Shown here piece after piece: positions 48,745 to 53,573 of a DNA stretch of 64,000 bases. The translations under genes and the position numbers were made by a program. The stretch comes from a phage: the sequence record NC_135729.1. The stretch is one strand, 5' to 3'. Position 1 is the first letter of the stretch. The number at the start of each line of letters is the position of its first letter. A model generated the notes under the pieces. That model was given only the letters and a program-made list of their open reading frames with translations, searched no databases and was not told where the DNA came from.

Positions 48745-48821
48745 TGGTCTCCACGGAGTGATTCGAACACTCGACCTCCTGATCCCAAATCAGGCGCTCT
48801 ACCAAGCTGAGCTACGCGGAG
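48745..48821 (-). tRNA. tRNA-Pro (anticodon UGG)
   Basis: Manual fold: acceptor CTCCGCG/CGTGGAG, U8, D-loop AGCTTGGTA, anticodon stem CCTGA/TCAGG with loop TTTGGGA, T-arm GAGTG-TTCGAAT-CACTC, CCA encoded. Confidence 0.8.
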
Positions 48822-48832
48822 TATCTACTATT

Positions 48833-48907
48833 TGGTGGCCCTGGGTGGAATTGAACCACCGTCTGGCGATTATGAGTCGCTTGCTTGAACCTTCCAGCTA
48901 CAGGGCC
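48833..48907 (-). tRNA. tRNA-Met (anticodon CAU; elongator or lysidine-Ile2 not distinguishable)
   Basis: Manual fold: acceptor GGCCCTG/CAGGGCC, anticodon loop CTCATAA, T-arm GGTGG-TTCAATT-CCACC, CCA encoded. Confidence 0.7.
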
Positions 48908-48908
48908 A

Positions 48909-48984
48909 TGGTGCTGATGGCAGGACTTGAACCCGCAACCTATTGATTACAAATCAATTGCACTACCAATTGTGCTACATCAGC
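48909..48984 (-). tRNA. tRNA-Thr (anticodon UGU)
   Basis: Manual fold: acceptor GCTGATG/CATCAGC, D-arm GCAC-AATTGGTA-GTGC, anticodon stem ATTGA/TCAAT with loop TTTGTAA, T-arm GCGGG-TTCAAGT-CCTGC, CCA encoded; 1 nt from tRNA-Met. Confidence 0.8.
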
Positions 48985-48989
48985 AAAAA

Positions 48990-49088
48990 GGTGCTAGGCG
49001 GTGGAATCGAACCACCTATGTATTCAACGACTACCTCGTCTATTTTCAGGATTAAAAATCCTCGCCCTTGCCAAAGGGCTTACCTAGC
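48990..49088 (-). ncRNA. atypical 99-nt tRNA-like element (anticodon uncertain)
   Basis: Good acceptor stem (GCTAGGT/GCCTAGC), D-arm (GCCC-TTTGGCAA-GGGC) and canonical T-arm (GGTGG-TTCGATT-CCACC), but a 4-bp anticodon-type hairpin (AGGA-TTTTTAA-TCCT) and about 31 nt before the T-arm; 3' end ACC. Confidence 0.4.
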
Positions 49089-49186
49089 TCAATATGTTGA
49101 CCATGTTGCTAGTCGGCGATGACGACTGTAACATTTGATAATCCGGTTCTGCTTCCGGCTTTCGCTTAATTGCAAGGTCAACAATG

Positions 49187-49277
49187 TGGCGGAGAGTAAT
49201 GGAATCGAACCATCATCGAGTCATCCTCAACGGGACGGTTTTCAAGACCGCTTGAGCACCATTGCTCCCTACCCTCC
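49187..49277 (-). tRNA. tRNA-Ser (anticodon UGA), type II
   Basis: Manual fold: acceptor GGAGGGT/ACTCTCC, anticodon stem GCGGT/ACCGT with loop CTTGAAA, long variable arm, T-loop TTCGATT, CCA encoded. Confidence 0.75.
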
Positions 49278-49391
49278 TTTATAAATTATACTGATAATGA
49301 CACTGATTTTCGAGCAGTTAGTGACTAGTATAAACGACGATAAATATCAATGCCATTATCTGTATTATTTATGCATCTAAAAAATATAAAT

Positions 49392-49478
49392 TTGGTGGGG
49401 AGTGGTGGAGTCGAACCACCCGAGTCGCAATGACAATAGATTTACAGTCTACACCGCTACCTCTACGGGATAACTCCC
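49392..49478 (-). tRNA. tRNA-Tyr (anticodon GUA), type II
   Basis: Manual fold: acceptor GGGGAGT/ACTCCCC, anticodon stem with loop CTGTAAA, long variable arm, T-arm GGTGG-TTCGACT-CCACC, CCA encoded. Confidence 0.75.
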
Positions 49479-49482
49479 CAAT

Positions 49483-49557
49483 TTGGCACCCCGTACTGGA
49501 CTCGAACCAGTGTCAACGGCTTAGAAGGCCGCTGCTTTATCCACTAAGCTAACAGGG
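49483..49557 (-). tRNA. tRNA-Arg (anticodon UCU)
   Basis: Manual fold: acceptor GCCCTGT/ACGGGGT (two G-U pairs), D-arm GCTT-AGTGGATA-AAGC, anticodon stem GCGGC/GCCGT with loop CTTCTAA, T-loop TTCGAGT, CCA encoded. Confidence 0.75.
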
Positions 49558-49654
49558 CACTGGGTGGCTTTCTTTTACACCTTAGCCGCCAGAAAAGGTG
49601 GGAGACCATGTTTACAATATTACACTGTTAAGCAAAGTTTGTCAAGAAAATATT

Positions 49655-50646: not shown

Positions 50647-50856
50647 TCAACAGATTCCGGCCTTATCCTTCCTGTCTGCGTATTCTTTAATCGCAACCTC
50701 ATCTGCATTAGTGACCAGGTATTCAAAGTAACTCTCAAGCTCCTCGTCAATGTCAGGAGACCAGCTCTTTTTCCTGTCAGTGTGAATTGCAGACTTGTTG
50801 AACTTATTACAGTTCTTTGCTACCGGGTTGTTCATTAAGCGCTCCTCAGCGTTCAT
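50647..50856 (-). CDS. hypothetical protein (69 aa)
   Basis: ORF overlapping the upstream gene by 11 nt; no motif. Confidence 0.35.
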   Translation of the reverse strand: MNAEERLMNNPVAKNCNKFNKSAIHTDRKKSWSPDIDEELESYFEYLVTNADEVAIKEYADRKDKAGIC

Positions 50857-51424
50857 AGTAAATTTTATTTAACATTACCTCATCCTTTGCAGAAAGGATA
50901 TCTAGATATGCATCACCGAATCTACCTGCAACAACCTCTGCATGATACATCACTTCGTTAATATCGTCAAGAGTGATAACTGGATGACCGTATCTCTCTG
51001 AGTATTGTCTCAGAGTGCGATGTAGGGAGTCATCATCATAGGCAGACTTTTTAATATCGCAAACACGACGAATAGCCTTGATGTCGAAAAACCCTGTACG
51101 ATACCAACCAAGAAAAAGGTTTCGTGCAGTGTCAACATCTACATCAATACCATTAAGAACCTTATCTACAAGATAGCTGTCATCCTTTGGACCAGCTTCC
51201 TTAGTGCGAATGTAGTTGCCATCTTTTCCAGGTGACATCTCCTTCTCATCACCAACCTGCATGCCATCATTTGGCGGTGTTAGCCACTTATCCGGATGCT
51301 TACGATCACGAGCGTTAGAATGATTACGCTGGAAACCAGGCTTCCACTTGAAAGTTTTCTCCATCTGTTCTTCATTCTGATAACGTTTTGCAATCTTTTC
51401 ACGGTCATCTTTGCGTGAACCCAT
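50846..51424 (-). CDS. hypothetical protein (192 aa)
   Basis: Charged protein; first gene downstream (leftward) of the non-coding hub; no motif. Confidence 0.4.
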   Translation of the reverse strand: MGSRKDDREKIAKRYQNEEQMEKTFKWKPGFQRNHSNARDRKHPDKWLTPPNDGMQVGDEKEMSPGKDGNYIRTKEAGPKDDSYLVDKVLNGIDVDVDTARNLFLGWYRTGFFDIKAIRRVCDIKKSAYDDDSLHRTLRQYSERYGHPVITLDDINEVMYHAEVVAGRFGDAYLDILSAKDEVMLNKIYYER

Positions 51425-51818
51425 AGCTGCCTCCTCTTCAAGTTATAGAAAAACTCACTGTATCACTTTGTAACGAGCTTTTCTATCAAACTGGTGCGAT
51501 TGCATTACCTGGTATAGTTCATATAGCTGTGGAGCGATTTAGGGGCCTTCTTGTCAGTTTCCACACATAAACTTCATCCAAGCTCGCGCGGGAGACTCTC
51601 AACCGACTCCTTACGGCGCTGGCAAGCTTTCGTCGGTGGTCCACATCAGTGCTCGGCCTTTGGCCTGCGCTATCGCTTCGCTCCCACACATGTTAACAGA
51701 CCTGCATGTATGCACTTCTGTTATTGTGTGCACCAAGGAGGCCCGGCATCTCGCCCCTCGTAGGCGAGTGCCAATGAAGGGCCGACACTACCTATAGTAA
51801 GTAATAATTTTAAAACAT

Positions 51819-51885
51819 GGTACTTAGGATCTAGTATATTCTACATAAGTTAAGTATATGTACTTAGTACCATAAGTACTAGATC
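51819..51885. repeat. nested inverted and direct repeats in an AT-rich segment
   Basis: GGTACTTAG-GATCTAGTA ... GTACTTAGTACC ... TACTAGATC, followed by AT-rich direct repeats (TATTTAGT / TATTTTAGT). Confidence 0.45.
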
Positions 51886-51928
51886 TTTTATTTTTTATTA
51901 TTTAGTTATTTTAGTTATATTCTTTATG

Positions 51929-52009
51929 TGTCCGTATCACGGACAGTTAGTGTCCGTATTACGGGCAGATGTGTCCGCGTGACGGACAGTAGTGTCCGTA
52001 TCACGGGCA
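51929..52009. repeat. array of four 17-bp palindromes, TGTCCGTAT(C/T)ACGGACA-type, at 21-22-bp spacing (operator- or iteron-like)
   Basis: Copies at 51929, 51951, 51972 and 51993: TGTCCGTATCACGGACA, TGTCCGTATTACGGGCA, TGTCCGCGTGACGGACA, TGTCCGTATCACGGGCA. Confidence 0.6.
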
Positions 52010-52084
52010 GTTACTGACCTCTGTTCCAGAGCGAACATAAAACATACGAATCCTTATAGTACAGATATTTAAGTTTTTACTGGT

Positions 52085-52435
52085 CTAACCAGTTGTTGAC
52101 ATTCGAATAACCTCTTCTGGTGGCAAAACTTTGGAAAATGTACATCTTTTACCTCTCCCTTGTGTGGATATTTCAACCACTCCTGCACATTCTAAAGTTT
52201 TAACGCACGCTGCTGCTTTTGTTTTCTTTATCCCAACATCTGCTGCAATTTTCCTTGTGCTTGGTGTGAAGCGTGAATTTCCTCCAAGCTTATACCAGTT
52301 GTGCAGGTAGCAGTATACGATCTTGTCATATAAGTCAAGAACAACAGCCTCCCCAGTTGTGTCATTCAAAACTTTTGACATAGACAGTATTTCAAGGGGG
52401 ACTTTAAGATATAGCAGCTTATCCCCATCTTTCAT
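52085..52435 (-). CDS. helix-turn-helix DNA-binding regulator (116 aa)
   Basis: Probable HTH segment STRKIAADVGIKKTKAAACVKTLECAGVV; gene ends about 75 bp from the palindrome array. Confidence 0.45.
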   Translation of the reverse strand: MKDGDKLLYLKVPLEILSMSKVLNDTTGEAVVLDLYDKIVYCYLHNWYKLGGNSRFTPSTRKIAADVGIKKTKAAACVKTLECAGVVEISTQGRGKRCTFSKVLPPEEVIRMSTTG

Positions 52436-53515: not shown

Positions 53516-53545
53516 TTGACACTAGGTTATTTGTGTGGCATGATA
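53516..53545 (+). promoter_or_regulatory. sigma70-type promoter for the rightward RNA ligase / Sir2 operon (divergent from the previous one)
   Basis: Consensus -35 TTGACA at 53516..53521 with a weaker -10 (CATGAT/ATGATA) 17-18 bp downstream; -35 elements of the two promoters lie back to back. Confidence 0.4.
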
Positions 53546-53573
53546 GACTGACAAAATGACAAATGAGGAACGT

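What the first reader, a model, noticed from the sequence alone, without database searches (positions are those of the whole stretch)
51819..51925. AT-rich segment with nested inverted and direct repeats next to the palindrome array (origin-like architecture)
GATCTAGTA and TACTAGATC form an inverted pair around a direct repeat of GTACTTAG/GGTACTTAG, followed by AT-rich direct repeats (TATTTAGT, TATTTTAGT). Dyads plus an easily melted AT-rich tract beside protein-binding iterons is the classic layout of a replication origin or packaging site.
Basis: seen in the sequence. Interest (0 to 1): 0.45.

Follow-up and report, generated by a model that had tools for sequence, protein, structure and literature searches.

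The report
Candidate replication origin, rV5-like phage
The AT-rich stretch is the most easily melted and one of the best conserved pieces of a 660-bp non-coding module in an rV5-like coliphage that is laid out like a lambda-type replication origin, but this rests on sequence comparison only and no origin has been mapped in these phages.

Summary
The window is an rV5-like coliphage (Vequintavirus). What is exceptional is the segment itself. It is the most AT-rich 100 bp of the window and of the rV5 genome, and it is nearly invariant across 18 relatives. It holds two GATC sites and rV5's only exact match to the oriC 13-mer consensus. It directly abuts four 17-bp palindromes spaced 21-22 bp apart that occur nowhere else in rV5. 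The gene next to that array encodes a 116-aa winged-helix protein that weakly resembles replication initiators. In a divergent relative, that protein and the repeats are swapped together. E. coli plasmids of 13-15 kb that look like satellites of these phages show the same layout. They also share the adjacent folded GC-rich block. My best reading is a lambda-like origin (confidence about 0.45). The rivals are a transcription-control or leader region, a packaging (pac) site, and chance. Nothing is shown experimentally. Other genera of the subfamily lack the module at the syntenic site.

The parts
52085..52435 (-). Gene for a 116-aa winged-helix DNA-binding protein (rV5 ORF79). It is the presumed binder of the adjacent palindromes and is labelled either 'putative transcriptional regulator' or 'replication initiation protein' in public records.
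   Evidence: ORF. Pfam HTH_36 scores 24.5 bits against a cut-off of 25, and DUF6945 is also sub-threshold. PHROG 12838 'replication initiation protein' matches at 1e-79, with weaker hits to the initiator PHROGs 8102, 428 and 270. A sigma-70-like promoter, TTGACA-18-TATTTT, lies at 52499-52470 and corresponds to rV5 P76. The syntenic 143-aa homologue in L029 is 26% identical, E 2e-6.
52013..52084 (.). Spacer between the palindrome array and the stop codon of the winged-helix gene. Positions 52000-52050 are hypervariable.
   Evidence: Nucleotide diversity 0.108, with 33% of columns variable across 18 sequences.
51928..52009 (.). Array of four 17-bp dyad-symmetric sites (TGTCCGTATCACGGACA and variants) at 51929-45, 51951-67, 51972-88 and 51993-52009. 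Start-to-start spacing is 22, 21 and 21 bp, about two helical turns. These are the putative iterons.
   Evidence: 10 strand-matches against 1.2 expected, and all convincing ones lie here. The sites are unique in the rV5 genome. Copy number is 4 in the window and 13 fetched relatives, 3 in three and 2 in two, always by whole-unit deletions. In L029 they are replaced by different dyad repeats next to a different allele of the protein.
51882..51925 (+). T-rich tract abutting the array. It holds GATCTTTTATTTT (51882-51894, an exact fit to the oriC 13-mer consensus GATCTnTTnTTTT) and the tandem TATTT(T)AGT repeats (51899-51915). This is the putative DNA-unwinding element.
   Evidence: The 13-mer is the only exact match in the window and in the rV5 genome. 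About 0.09 exact matches are expected per 64 kb, and 0 of 5000 local shuffles produced one. A T-rich tract of different sequence adjoins the GC block in the same orientation in L029. In the satellites a GATCTATT-containing T-rich tract directly precedes the iterons.
51797..51881 (.). Left half of the AT-rich block. Its function is unknown, and it may carry binding sites for a further factor.
   Evidence: for the repeats. The stretch is nearly invariant in 18 sequences. The repeats are not beyond chance. It is absent from L029.
51520..51795 (-). GC-rich (55-59%) structured block, a series of stem-loops punctuated by (C)CCACAC(A) motifs. It is probably a structured RNA, or a single-stranded DNA element, that belongs to the same module. 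The strand is not settled, though the minus strand is slightly favoured.
   Evidence: It is the most GC-rich 250 nt of the window and of rV5. Folding z is -2.2 on both strands. No Rfam family matches. It is 82% identical in L029. It shows 84-85% partial matches in satellite-like plasmids, with four compensatory pair changes in two helices. In rV5 an 18-nt deletion removes the tip of one hairpin. The alignment fold is -78.0 on the minus strand against -69.2 kcal/mol on the plus strand (the plus-strand alignment also includes L029).
50846..51424 (-). ORF192 (rV5 ORF77), the first gene downstream of the module on the minus strand. Its function is unknown.
   Evidence: ORF. No Pfam hit, and PHROG 12226 has no assigned function. 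In another phage a 50%-identical homologue lies between a DNA ligase gene and a 379-aa gene. The AlphaFold model is too poor to use.

Best explanation
The finding is the AT-rich core of a lambda-type replication-origin module that is specific to the genus Vequintavirus.

Proposed mechanism. Every step is inferred unless marked otherwise. The 116-aa winged-helix protein is made early from a sigma-70 promoter. It binds as dimers to the four private 17-bp palindromes. These lie on one face of the helix, two turns apart. Together they form a nucleoprotein complex.

The strain this complex creates is relieved in the adjacent T-rich tract (51882-51925). That tract is the most easily melted DNA in the genome. 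The phage's own T7-gp4-like primase-helicase and family-A DNA polymerase then enter there. These two enzymes are annotated in rV5.

They could be a further factor-binding segment and an origin-associated transcript or single-strand element.

What is shown here: the anatomy, uniqueness and conservation of the parts; the joint replacement of protein and repeats in a relative; and the parallel layout in plasmid replicons.

What is inferred: binding of the protein to the sites, DNA unwinding, and initiation of replication.
For: (1) The four dyad sites have 21-22 bp spacing and are unique in the window and in the whole rV5 genome.
(2) They directly abut the most AT-rich 100 bp of the genome, 18-19% GC against 44% overall.
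(3) The AT block holds rV5's only exact match to GATCTnTTnTTTT. The T-rich strand reads toward the binding sites, as I recall for oriC. It also holds two GATC sites, reached by 0 of 3000 shuffles.
(4) The AT block and the palindromes are the best conserved parts of the intergenic gap, with diversity 0.010 and 0.019 against 0.05-0.11 in the flanks.
(5) The neighbouring protein is a winged helix whose only named relatives are replication-initiator families, and it has an early-type promoter.
(6) In the divergent relative L029, a 26%-identical homologue at the same position is accompanied by a different set of dyad repeats, a T-rich tract of different sequence and the conserved GC block. This is a specificity swap like the initiator-plus-origin swaps I recall for lambdoid phages.
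(7) Circular 13-15 kb E. coli plasmids must carry an origin, and they show the same order: GC block, T-rich GATC-containing tract, private iteron array. Each has a lambda-O-like 303-aa protein, and the Rep allele and iterons change together between elements.
(8) No other origin is known. The rV5 genome paper looked for one and found only transcription-linked skew shifts (PMC3606486).
Against: There is no functional evidence of any kind.

The protein scores below Pfam thresholds, shows no match to Phage_rep_O, and at 116 aa has no room for a helicase-recruiting domain.

No DnaA boxes or IHF sites occur in the region.

The cumulative GC-skew minimum 1.5 kb away coincides with the divergent transcription switch. 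By my reading of the cumulative values, the slope is similar in all four transcription units. Skew therefore adds nothing.

Viable relatives carry only two or three palindromes.

The module is absent from the syntenic position in Mydovirus and Phapecoctavirus, so it is not a subfamily-wide essential element at this site.

rV5 has a second repeat-rich, AT-rich non-coding stretch of 2.6 kb at 104.0-106.6 kb. That stretch could equally be the origin.

A DNA-unwinding element needs only its base composition, so the near-invariance of the left half of the AT block calls for some further explanation.
Confidence: 0.45

Rival explanations
1. This is a transcription-control and leader region. The winged-helix protein is a transcription factor, as most records annotate it. 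The palindromes are its operators. The AT block carries a promoter or an upstream (UP-like) element firing leftward. The GC block is the structured 5' leader or a non-coding RNA of the ORF192-to-tRNA transcription unit, for instance an antitermination or processing element.
For: All genes here are on the minus strand, so the module lies inside a leftward transcription unit. The GC block has conserved, covarying helices, and the alignment fold slightly favours the minus strand. PhagePromoter placed a promoter at about 51899-51906 (-) in phage Gotham. Many records call the protein a transcriptional regulator. Satellites commonly share regulatory elements with their helpers (own knowledge of P2/P4).
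Against: No sigma-70-like promoter is found on either strand in 51500-52080, and no intrinsic terminator. The rV5 authors annotated none there either. The late-promoter-like motif TGGTAAAATA occurs 16 times on the minus strand, but only between 3.4 and 47.3 kb, and never at this locus. The palindromes lie downstream of the protein's own gene, not at its promoter, and occur nowhere else in the genome. A regulator with a single target cluster is possible but unusual. This reading does not explain the parallel with plasmid iteron arrays.
Confidence: 0.22
2. This is a packaging initiation (pac) region. The module, or chiefly its GC block, is the site where the phage terminase starts headful packaging. 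The satellite-like plasmids carry a copy so that they are packaged by the helper.
For: The plasmids have no annotated terminase gene. They share with the phage only two non-coding stretches, one of which is the GC block. A satellite without a terminase has to present a site the helper's terminase recognises (own knowledge). Vequintaviruses are reported as headful, circularly permuted packagers, so a pac site should exist somewhere (PMC8407724, PMC13211470). The locus lies about 3.5-4 kb upstream of the terminase genes in the same transcription direction. GATC sites also occur in the methylation-regulated pac site of phage P1 (own knowledge).
Against: The part shared with the satellites is the GC block, not the finding's AT block or the palindromes, which are private to each element. 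No small-terminase gene adjoins the module. The ORF192 homologue sits among DNA-metabolism genes in another phage. No published terminus maps here. The single public record that breaks at about 52013 is unannotated and marked UNVERIFIED, and repeats often break assemblies.
Confidence: 0.15
3. The array and AT tract have no specific cis-function. The palindromes act as REP-like RNA hairpins that stabilise the 3' end of the early PNK-phosphoesterase-winged-helix transcript, and the AT-rich stretch is spacer DNA whose small repeats arose by chance.
For: The small repeats are within chance expectation. The palindromes lie 75 nt past a stop codon. Their copy number varies from 2 to 4 in viable phages.
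Against: The AT block is the best conserved non-coding stretch here, with diversity 0.010 against 0.108 in the true spacer. Its composition is the extreme of the whole genome. Repeats and protein change together in L029, which points to protein-DNA recognition rather than generic hairpins. No U-tract follows the hairpins on the transcribed strand.
Confidence: 0.06

Closest known systems
Phage lambda ori with the O initiator (own knowledge of the system)
   Same: Both have four regularly spaced initiator sites, each with internal dyad symmetry, immediately followed by an AT-rich unwinding tract. Both have a cognate winged-helix DNA-binding protein encoded next to the sites. In both, the initiator and its sites are swapped together between relatives.
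   Different: Lambda ori lies inside the O gene, and O has a C-terminal domain that recruits P-DnaB. Here the sites lie 75 nt beyond the stop codon, and the protein is only 116 aa with no detectable Phage_rep_O match. The phage encodes its own gp4-like primase-helicase. A conserved GC-rich structured block is attached.
E. coli oriC DNA-unwinding element (13-mers GATCTnTTnTTTT; own knowledge)
   Same: There is one exact 13-mer (51882-51894) and one 9/11 match (51828-51840). GATC sites are present. The T-rich strand reads toward the initiator sites.
   Different: The 13-mers are not in tandem. There are no DnaA boxes and no IHF sites. The binding sites are phage-specific palindromes.
Iteron replicons of satellites and plasmids, for example the PLE RepA_N origin in Vibrio cholerae (PMC7145576) and the 13-15 kb E. 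coli plasmids found here
   Same: All have a non-coding region with semi-palindromic repeats specific to the cognate initiator, next to AT-rich DNA. The plasmids found here also share the GC block and the order of the parts.
   Different: [quoted passage not shown] Here nothing has been tested. The plasmid initiator-like protein is 303 aa and O-like by weak PHROG hits only.
Transcription-dependent phage origins: the T7 primary origin, T4 oriF/oriG R-loop origins and the lactococcal phage c2 ori (own knowledge)
   Same: An AT-rich unwinding tract lies in a transcribed non-coding region of a phage that uses a gp4-like primase-helicase and a family-A polymerase. A structured transcript lies next to it.
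   Different: Those origins need a promoter just upstream of the AT tract and no iteron-binding initiator. No promoter is predicted here. A T7-promoter look-alike at 51812-51790 (-) is not conserved in L029, and rV5 has no annotated phage-type RNA polymerase.
Phage P1 pac site (own knowledge)
   Same: It is a short AT-rich region whose GATC-containing repeats matter for function, and P1 also uses headful packaging.
   Different: P1 pac has seven TGATCA/G hexamers and lies in the pacA gene next to the terminase genes. Here there are only two GATC sites, and the terminase genes are about 4 kb away.

Membership tests
Lambda-type (O/iteron) phage origin | An array of three or more regularly spaced initiator sites with dyad symmetry | tested here: met
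   Four 17-bp palindromes at 21-22 bp spacing, unique in the genome.
Lambda-type (O/iteron) phage origin | An AT-rich unwinding tract immediately flanking the array | tested here: met
   51830-51929 is 19% GC and is the genome-wide minimum.
Lambda-type (O/iteron) phage origin | An initiator protein of the lambda O family (Pfam Phage_rep_O), with a helicase-loader interaction domain | tested here: not met
   No Phage_rep_O hit. HTH_36 scores 24.5 bits, below the cut-off of 25. The protein is 116 aa and consists of the DNA-binding domain only. Only weak PHROG initiator hits are found.
Lambda-type (O/iteron) phage origin | The initiator binds the sites and replication starts there | not testable with these tools
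   This needs binding assays, marker-frequency sequencing or a plasmid replication assay. The joint replacement of protein and repeats in L029 is indirect support only.
oriC-type (DnaA-dependent) origin | A cluster of DnaA boxes (TTWTNCACA) | tested here: not met
   Six matches in 64 kb against 8.2 expected, and none between 46 and 60 kb.
oriC-type (DnaA-dependent) origin | Tandem AT-rich 13-mers GATCTnTTnTTTT | tested here: inconclusive
   One exact copy, the only one in the genome, plus one 9/11 copy 54 nt away. They are not in tandem.
Phage pac or cos site | Virion DNA ends, or the start of the packaging series, map to the site | not testable with these tools
   The literature reports circular permutation and headful packaging without a mapped pac position (PMC8407724, PMC13211470). 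That argues against cos or fixed ends, but not against pac.
Phage pac or cos site | The site lies within or next to the small-terminase gene | tested here: not met
   The terminase genes lie about 3.5-4 kb downstream, beyond the tRNA cluster. The adjacent ORF192 shows no terminase signature, and its homologue sits among DNA-metabolism genes.
Operator array of a transcriptional repressor or activator | The binding sites overlap or flank a promoter | tested here: not met
   No sigma-70-like promoter is predicted in 51500-52080 on either strand. The only one nearby is upstream of the winged-helix gene, and it has no palindrome. The scan covers only sigma-70 consensus promoters.
Known RNA families (Rfam), for the adjacent GC block and the AT block | A match at the family's gathering score | tested here: not met
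   Only tRNAs reach threshold in the window. The best sub-threshold hit over the locus is rli43 at 22.9 bits against a gathering score of 100.

The most novel reading that the evidence does not exclude
The whole 660-bp module (winged-helix gene, private iterons, unwinding tract and covarying GC-rich structured block) is a mobile replication cassette. rV5-like phages would share it with a previously undescribed family of 13-15 kb plasmid-borne satellites in E. coli. These elements carry their own capsid gene, their own neck and tape-measure homologues, and an O-like Rep protein. The shared structured block would be the cis-element through which satellite and helper use the same phage machinery for priming, replication or packaging.
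Probability: 0.25. Interest if true: 0.75.

Novelty: new member of a known kind. Interest (0 to 1): 0.45.

Why it matters
rV5-like phages are among the most frequently isolated coliphages and are used in typing, biocontrol and therapy sets. Their replication origin is nevertheless unknown: the rV5 genome paper searched for it by skew analysis and failed.

This work gives a precise candidate of about 215 bp (51797-52012) plus a named candidate initiator. That makes the question directly testable by marker-frequency sequencing, binding assays and cloning. It would also help phage engineering, for example in designing minimal replicons or reporter constructs.

The link to small plasmid-like elements carrying rV5-type structural genes suggests a helper-satellite system that could be studied in E. 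coli K-12.

Tried and rejected
The DNA fold has z = -0.75, and the two inverted pairs interleave rather than nest. Rejected as a structural element.
- **T7-type promoter.** The minus strand at 51812-51790 (AATTATTACTTACTATAGGTAGT) looks like one. It is not conserved in L029, and rV5 has no annotated phage-type RNA polymerase. Rejected as chance.
- **Extended -10 promoter.** TGGTATAGT at 51510-51518 (+) could drive a plus-strand RNA through the GC block. It is broken in L003, L011 and L012. Not supported.
- **Late promoter.** The motif TGGTAAAATA is confined to 3.4-47.3 kb. Rejected.
- **DnaA boxes and IHF sites.** None found.
- **GC skew as origin evidence.** The minimum at rV5 66,689 coincides with the transcription switch, and the slopes are alike in all four units. 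Uninformative.
- **ORF192 as small terminase.** No family hit, the genomic context in another phage is DNA metabolism, and the AlphaFold model has pLDDT 49. Not supported.
- **Structure-based classification of the winged-helix protein.** The single-sequence model has pLDDT 50, so no fold search was run. The family is too narrow for a deeper alignment.
- **Protein-based scan of IMG/VR for the winged-helix protein.** It found nothing.
- **17-mer scan of genome contigs.** It returned only chance matches in unrelated bacteria. This was a wasted scan.
- **Rfam.** No family matches the GC block or the AT block.
- **Cross-recognition.** Phage palindromes are absent from the satellites, and satellite iterons are absent from rV5.
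- **Synteny in other genera.** Mydovirus and Phapecoctavirus have no equivalent module next to the phosphoesterase gene.

Full report
**Identity of the window.** The 751 bases around the finding match 118 phage records at 90-99.6% identity. All are rV5-like coliphages of the genus Vequintavirus. Eighteen of them are mislabelled 'Campylobacter phage'.

The finding lies in a 660-bp gap between two minus-strand genes. One is a 116-aa winged-helix gene at 52085-52435, which is rV5 ORF79. The other is a 192-aa ORF at 50846-51424, rV5 ORF77. All genes up to 53512 are on the minus strand, and transcription diverges at about 53520-53556.

On the plus strand the gap reads, from left to right:
- a GC-rich block (51520-51795, 55-59% GC);
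- the AT-rich block (51797-51925, about 20% GC), which contains the finding;
- four 17-bp palindromes (51929-52009);
- a 72-bp spacer that runs up to the stop codon of the winged-helix gene.

**Checking the observation.** One detail needs correcting. Only the second GTACTTAG lies inside the GATCTAGTA/TACTAGATC pair. A second inverted pair (51817-27 / 51863-73) interleaves with the first, so no single long hairpin forms.

In 2000 dinucleotide-preserving shuffles of the 107 nt, a 9-nt inverted repeat appears in 7% and a 9-nt direct repeat in 29%. Counts of 7-mer repeats are only marginally high, at p 0.03-0.05. The DNA fold is no better than shuffled sequence, with z = -0.75. The short repeats are therefore real but unremarkable.

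**What is remarkable about the segment.** Three properties stand out.
- **Composition.** It is the most AT-rich 100 bp of the window (19% GC). Its counterpart is the most AT-rich 100 bp of the complete rV5 genome (18% against 43.6% overall).
- **Conservation.** I aligned the window with 17 relatives spanning 90-99% identity. Nucleotide diversity is 0.010 in the finding and 0.019 in the palindromes. It is 0.049 in the GC block and 0.108 in the spacer.
- **Motifs.** It holds two GATC sites, which 0 of 3000 shuffles reached. It also holds rV5's only exact match to GATCTnTTnTTTT, the consensus I recall for the oriC 13-mer. About 0.09 such matches are expected per 64 kb.

**The neighbours.** The palindromes (TGTCCGTATCACGGACA and variants) are spaced 22, 21 and 21 bp apart, about two helical turns. 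They occur nowhere else in the window or in the 137,947-bp rV5 genome. Their number varies: four copies in the window and 13 fetched relatives, three in three, two in two. The differences are always whole-unit deletions.

The adjacent protein is a winged helix. Pfam HTH_36 and DUF6945 match just below threshold, and one unnamed PDB structure (4RO3) matches. Its own PHROG family is labelled 'replication initiation protein', and it hits three other initiator PHROGs weakly. RefSeq uses the same label, while most submitters call it a 'putative transcriptional regulator'.

The protein family is very narrow, with only ten hits among 1.8 billion representative proteins. The gene has a good sigma-70 promoter, which suggests early expression.

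**Comparative evidence: a divergent phage.** A scan for a conserved stretch of the GC block found a 137-kb IMG/VR contig (L029, the same contig as L153). There the GC block is 82% identical and ORF192 and the phosphoesterase gene are conserved, but the rest of the module is replaced.
- The winged-helix protein is a 143-aa homologue that is only 26% identical (E 2e-6).
- The palindromes are replaced by a different family of dyad repeats (ATCTGATGCA / TGTATCAGAT).
- The AT block is replaced by a T-rich tract of unrelated sequence.

So the protein and the repeats change together, which argues that the protein binds them. AT-richness next to the GC block is kept.

**Comparative evidence: satellite-like plasmids.** The GC block also has 84-85% partial matches in circular E. 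coli plasmids of 13.2-13.7 kb. One plasmid is assembled as a trimer. Two metagenome contigs of 13.9 and 15.5 kb belong to the same group.

These elements encode a major capsid protein and homologues of rV5 ORF48 (50% identity), the ORF56 neck protein (45%) and the tape-measure protein (25%). They also encode a 303-aa protein with weak lambda-O-like hits. No terminase gene is annotated. They look like plasmid-borne satellites of rV5-like phages, and I found no description of them in the searchable literature.

Their large non-coding region has the same order of parts: GC block, then a T-rich tract containing GATCTATT, then an array of iterons. The iterons differ between elements, and so does the Rep-like allele. 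Neither the phage palindromes nor the plasmid iterons occur in the other partner.

A plasmid must have an origin, and this region is its only plausible location. The shared layout therefore supports an origin reading for the phage module.

**The GC block.** It is the most GC-rich 250 bp of the genome. It folds moderately better than shuffled sequence on both strands, with z = -2.2, and matches no Rfam family.

Two of its helices show two compensatory pair changes each between phage and plasmid: CCGAC/GTCGG becomes CTGCC/GGCAG, and GGCA..CTCGCC/GGCGAG..TGCC becomes GTCA..CTCTCC/GGAGAG..TGAC. It is therefore a conserved structured element, either RNA or single-stranded DNA.

Within the close relatives there is too little variation to test covariation properly. 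The minus strand is only slightly favoured.

**Weighing the explanations.** The origin reading accounts for the following:
- a unique iteron-like array on one face of the helix;
- its immediate contact with the most meltable DNA of the genome;
- the 13-mer and the GATC sites;
- the early gene for a Rep-like binding protein;
- the joint swap of protein and repeats;
- the parallel with plasmid replicons.

Against the origin reading:
- there are no functional data;
- the protein is a bare DNA-binding domain below family thresholds;
- no host-factor sites are present;
- relatives with only two palindromes are viable;
- the module is absent at the syntenic site in Mydovirus and Phapecoctavirus;
- rV5 has a second repeat-rich non-coding stretch at 104.0-106.6 kb that could be the real origin.

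The cumulative GC-skew minimum at rV5 66,689 is only 1.5 kb away. It coincides with the switch in transcription direction, and the slopes are similar in all four transcription units. As the rV5 authors concluded, skew is uninformative (PMC3606486).

A transcription-control or leader role fits the polarity of the region and the structured GC block. However, no promoter or terminator is predicted there. The late-promoter-like motif is confined to 3.4-47.3 kb.

A pac role is suggested by the element shared with terminase-less satellites. It also fits the reported headful packaging (PMC8407724, PMC13211470). But the shared part is the GC block rather than the finding, and no terminase gene adjoins it.

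**Verdict.** The best explanation is a lambda-like origin module with the finding as its unwinding core, at a confidence of about 0.45. If so, it is a new member of a known kind, in a phage group whose origin is unknown. The possible link to an undescribed satellite family is the most novel thread, and it was only partly followed.

Noticed in passing
window 51520-51795: This is the most GC-rich 250 nt of the phage genome (57-58% GC), directly beside the most AT-rich 100 nt. It is a chain of stem-loops punctuated by (C)CCACAC(A) motifs. It matches no Rfam family. Two helices covary between the phage and satellite-like plasmids. In rV5, L007 and L009 an 18-nt deletion removes a hairpin tip.
   Followed up: partly
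L021/L022 (NZ_CP020521.1), L023 (NZ_CP043822.1, a trimer), L150, L152: Circular E. coli plasmids and contigs of 13-15 kb carry a capsid gene, homologues of rV5 ORF48, ORF56 (neck) and the tape-measure protein (25-50% identity), an O-like Rep protein, private iterons and no annotated terminase gene. They look like an undescribed plasmid-borne satellite family of rV5-like phages. I found no paper describing them in the searchable library.
   Followed up: partly
window 51926-52012 (alignment of L001-L017): The number of palindromes varies among viable phages: four, three (L007, L010, L011) or two (L006 YN3, L008 navn). The differences are exact 21-, 42- or 43-nt deletions that keep the register.
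   Followed up: yes
window 52000-52050: A hypervariable patch (diversity about 0.145) lies between the last palindrome and the winged-helix stop codon. It contrasts sharply with the near-invariant array and AT block, and may mark a recombination boundary of the module.
   Followed up: no
L020 4013-6618 (rV5 104,013-106,618; outside the window): This is the 2.6-kb 'non-coding' region noted in the rV5 paper. It is full of repeats (AGTTTACAC-type and GCAACTAT/ATAGTTGC dyads) and holds the second most AT-rich 100 nt of the genome. A 49-nt stretch is 88% identical to part of the satellite Rep-like gene. It is a rival candidate for the origin or the pac site.
   Followed up: partly
window 3456-47292, minus strand: The motif TGGTAAAATA, allowing one mismatch, occurs 16 times on the minus (coding) strand of the structural-gene region and only twice on the plus strand. 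This agrees with the T4-late-like promoter motif proposed in the rV5 paper and places the start of the late region at or below 47.3 kb.
   Followed up: partly
window 51790-51812, minus strand: AATTATTACTTACTATAGGTAGT resembles a T7-type promoter at the junction of the AT block and the GC block. It is not conserved in L029, and no phage RNA polymerase is annotated in rV5, so it is probably chance.
   Followed up: yes
L154 (Logan contig DRR174583_581) 4001-4564: A 50%-identical homologue of ORF192 lies between a DNA ligase gene and a 379-aa gene in another phage. This hints that ORF192 belongs with DNA-metabolism functions.
   Followed up: partly
public records MG0656xx: Eighteen records named 'Campylobacter phage' (some marked UNVERIFIED) are 91-99.6% identical to this coliphage locus. 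They are evidently Vequintavirus genomes that are mislabelled or came from contaminated preparations. One of them (MG065672.1) starts and ends at the edge of the palindrome array, at window position about 52013.
   Followed up: no
window 48748-49558, minus strand: Rfam detects a cluster of five tRNA genes about 2 kb downstream of the module on the minus strand. Public annotations of relatives list six or seven.
   Followed up: no
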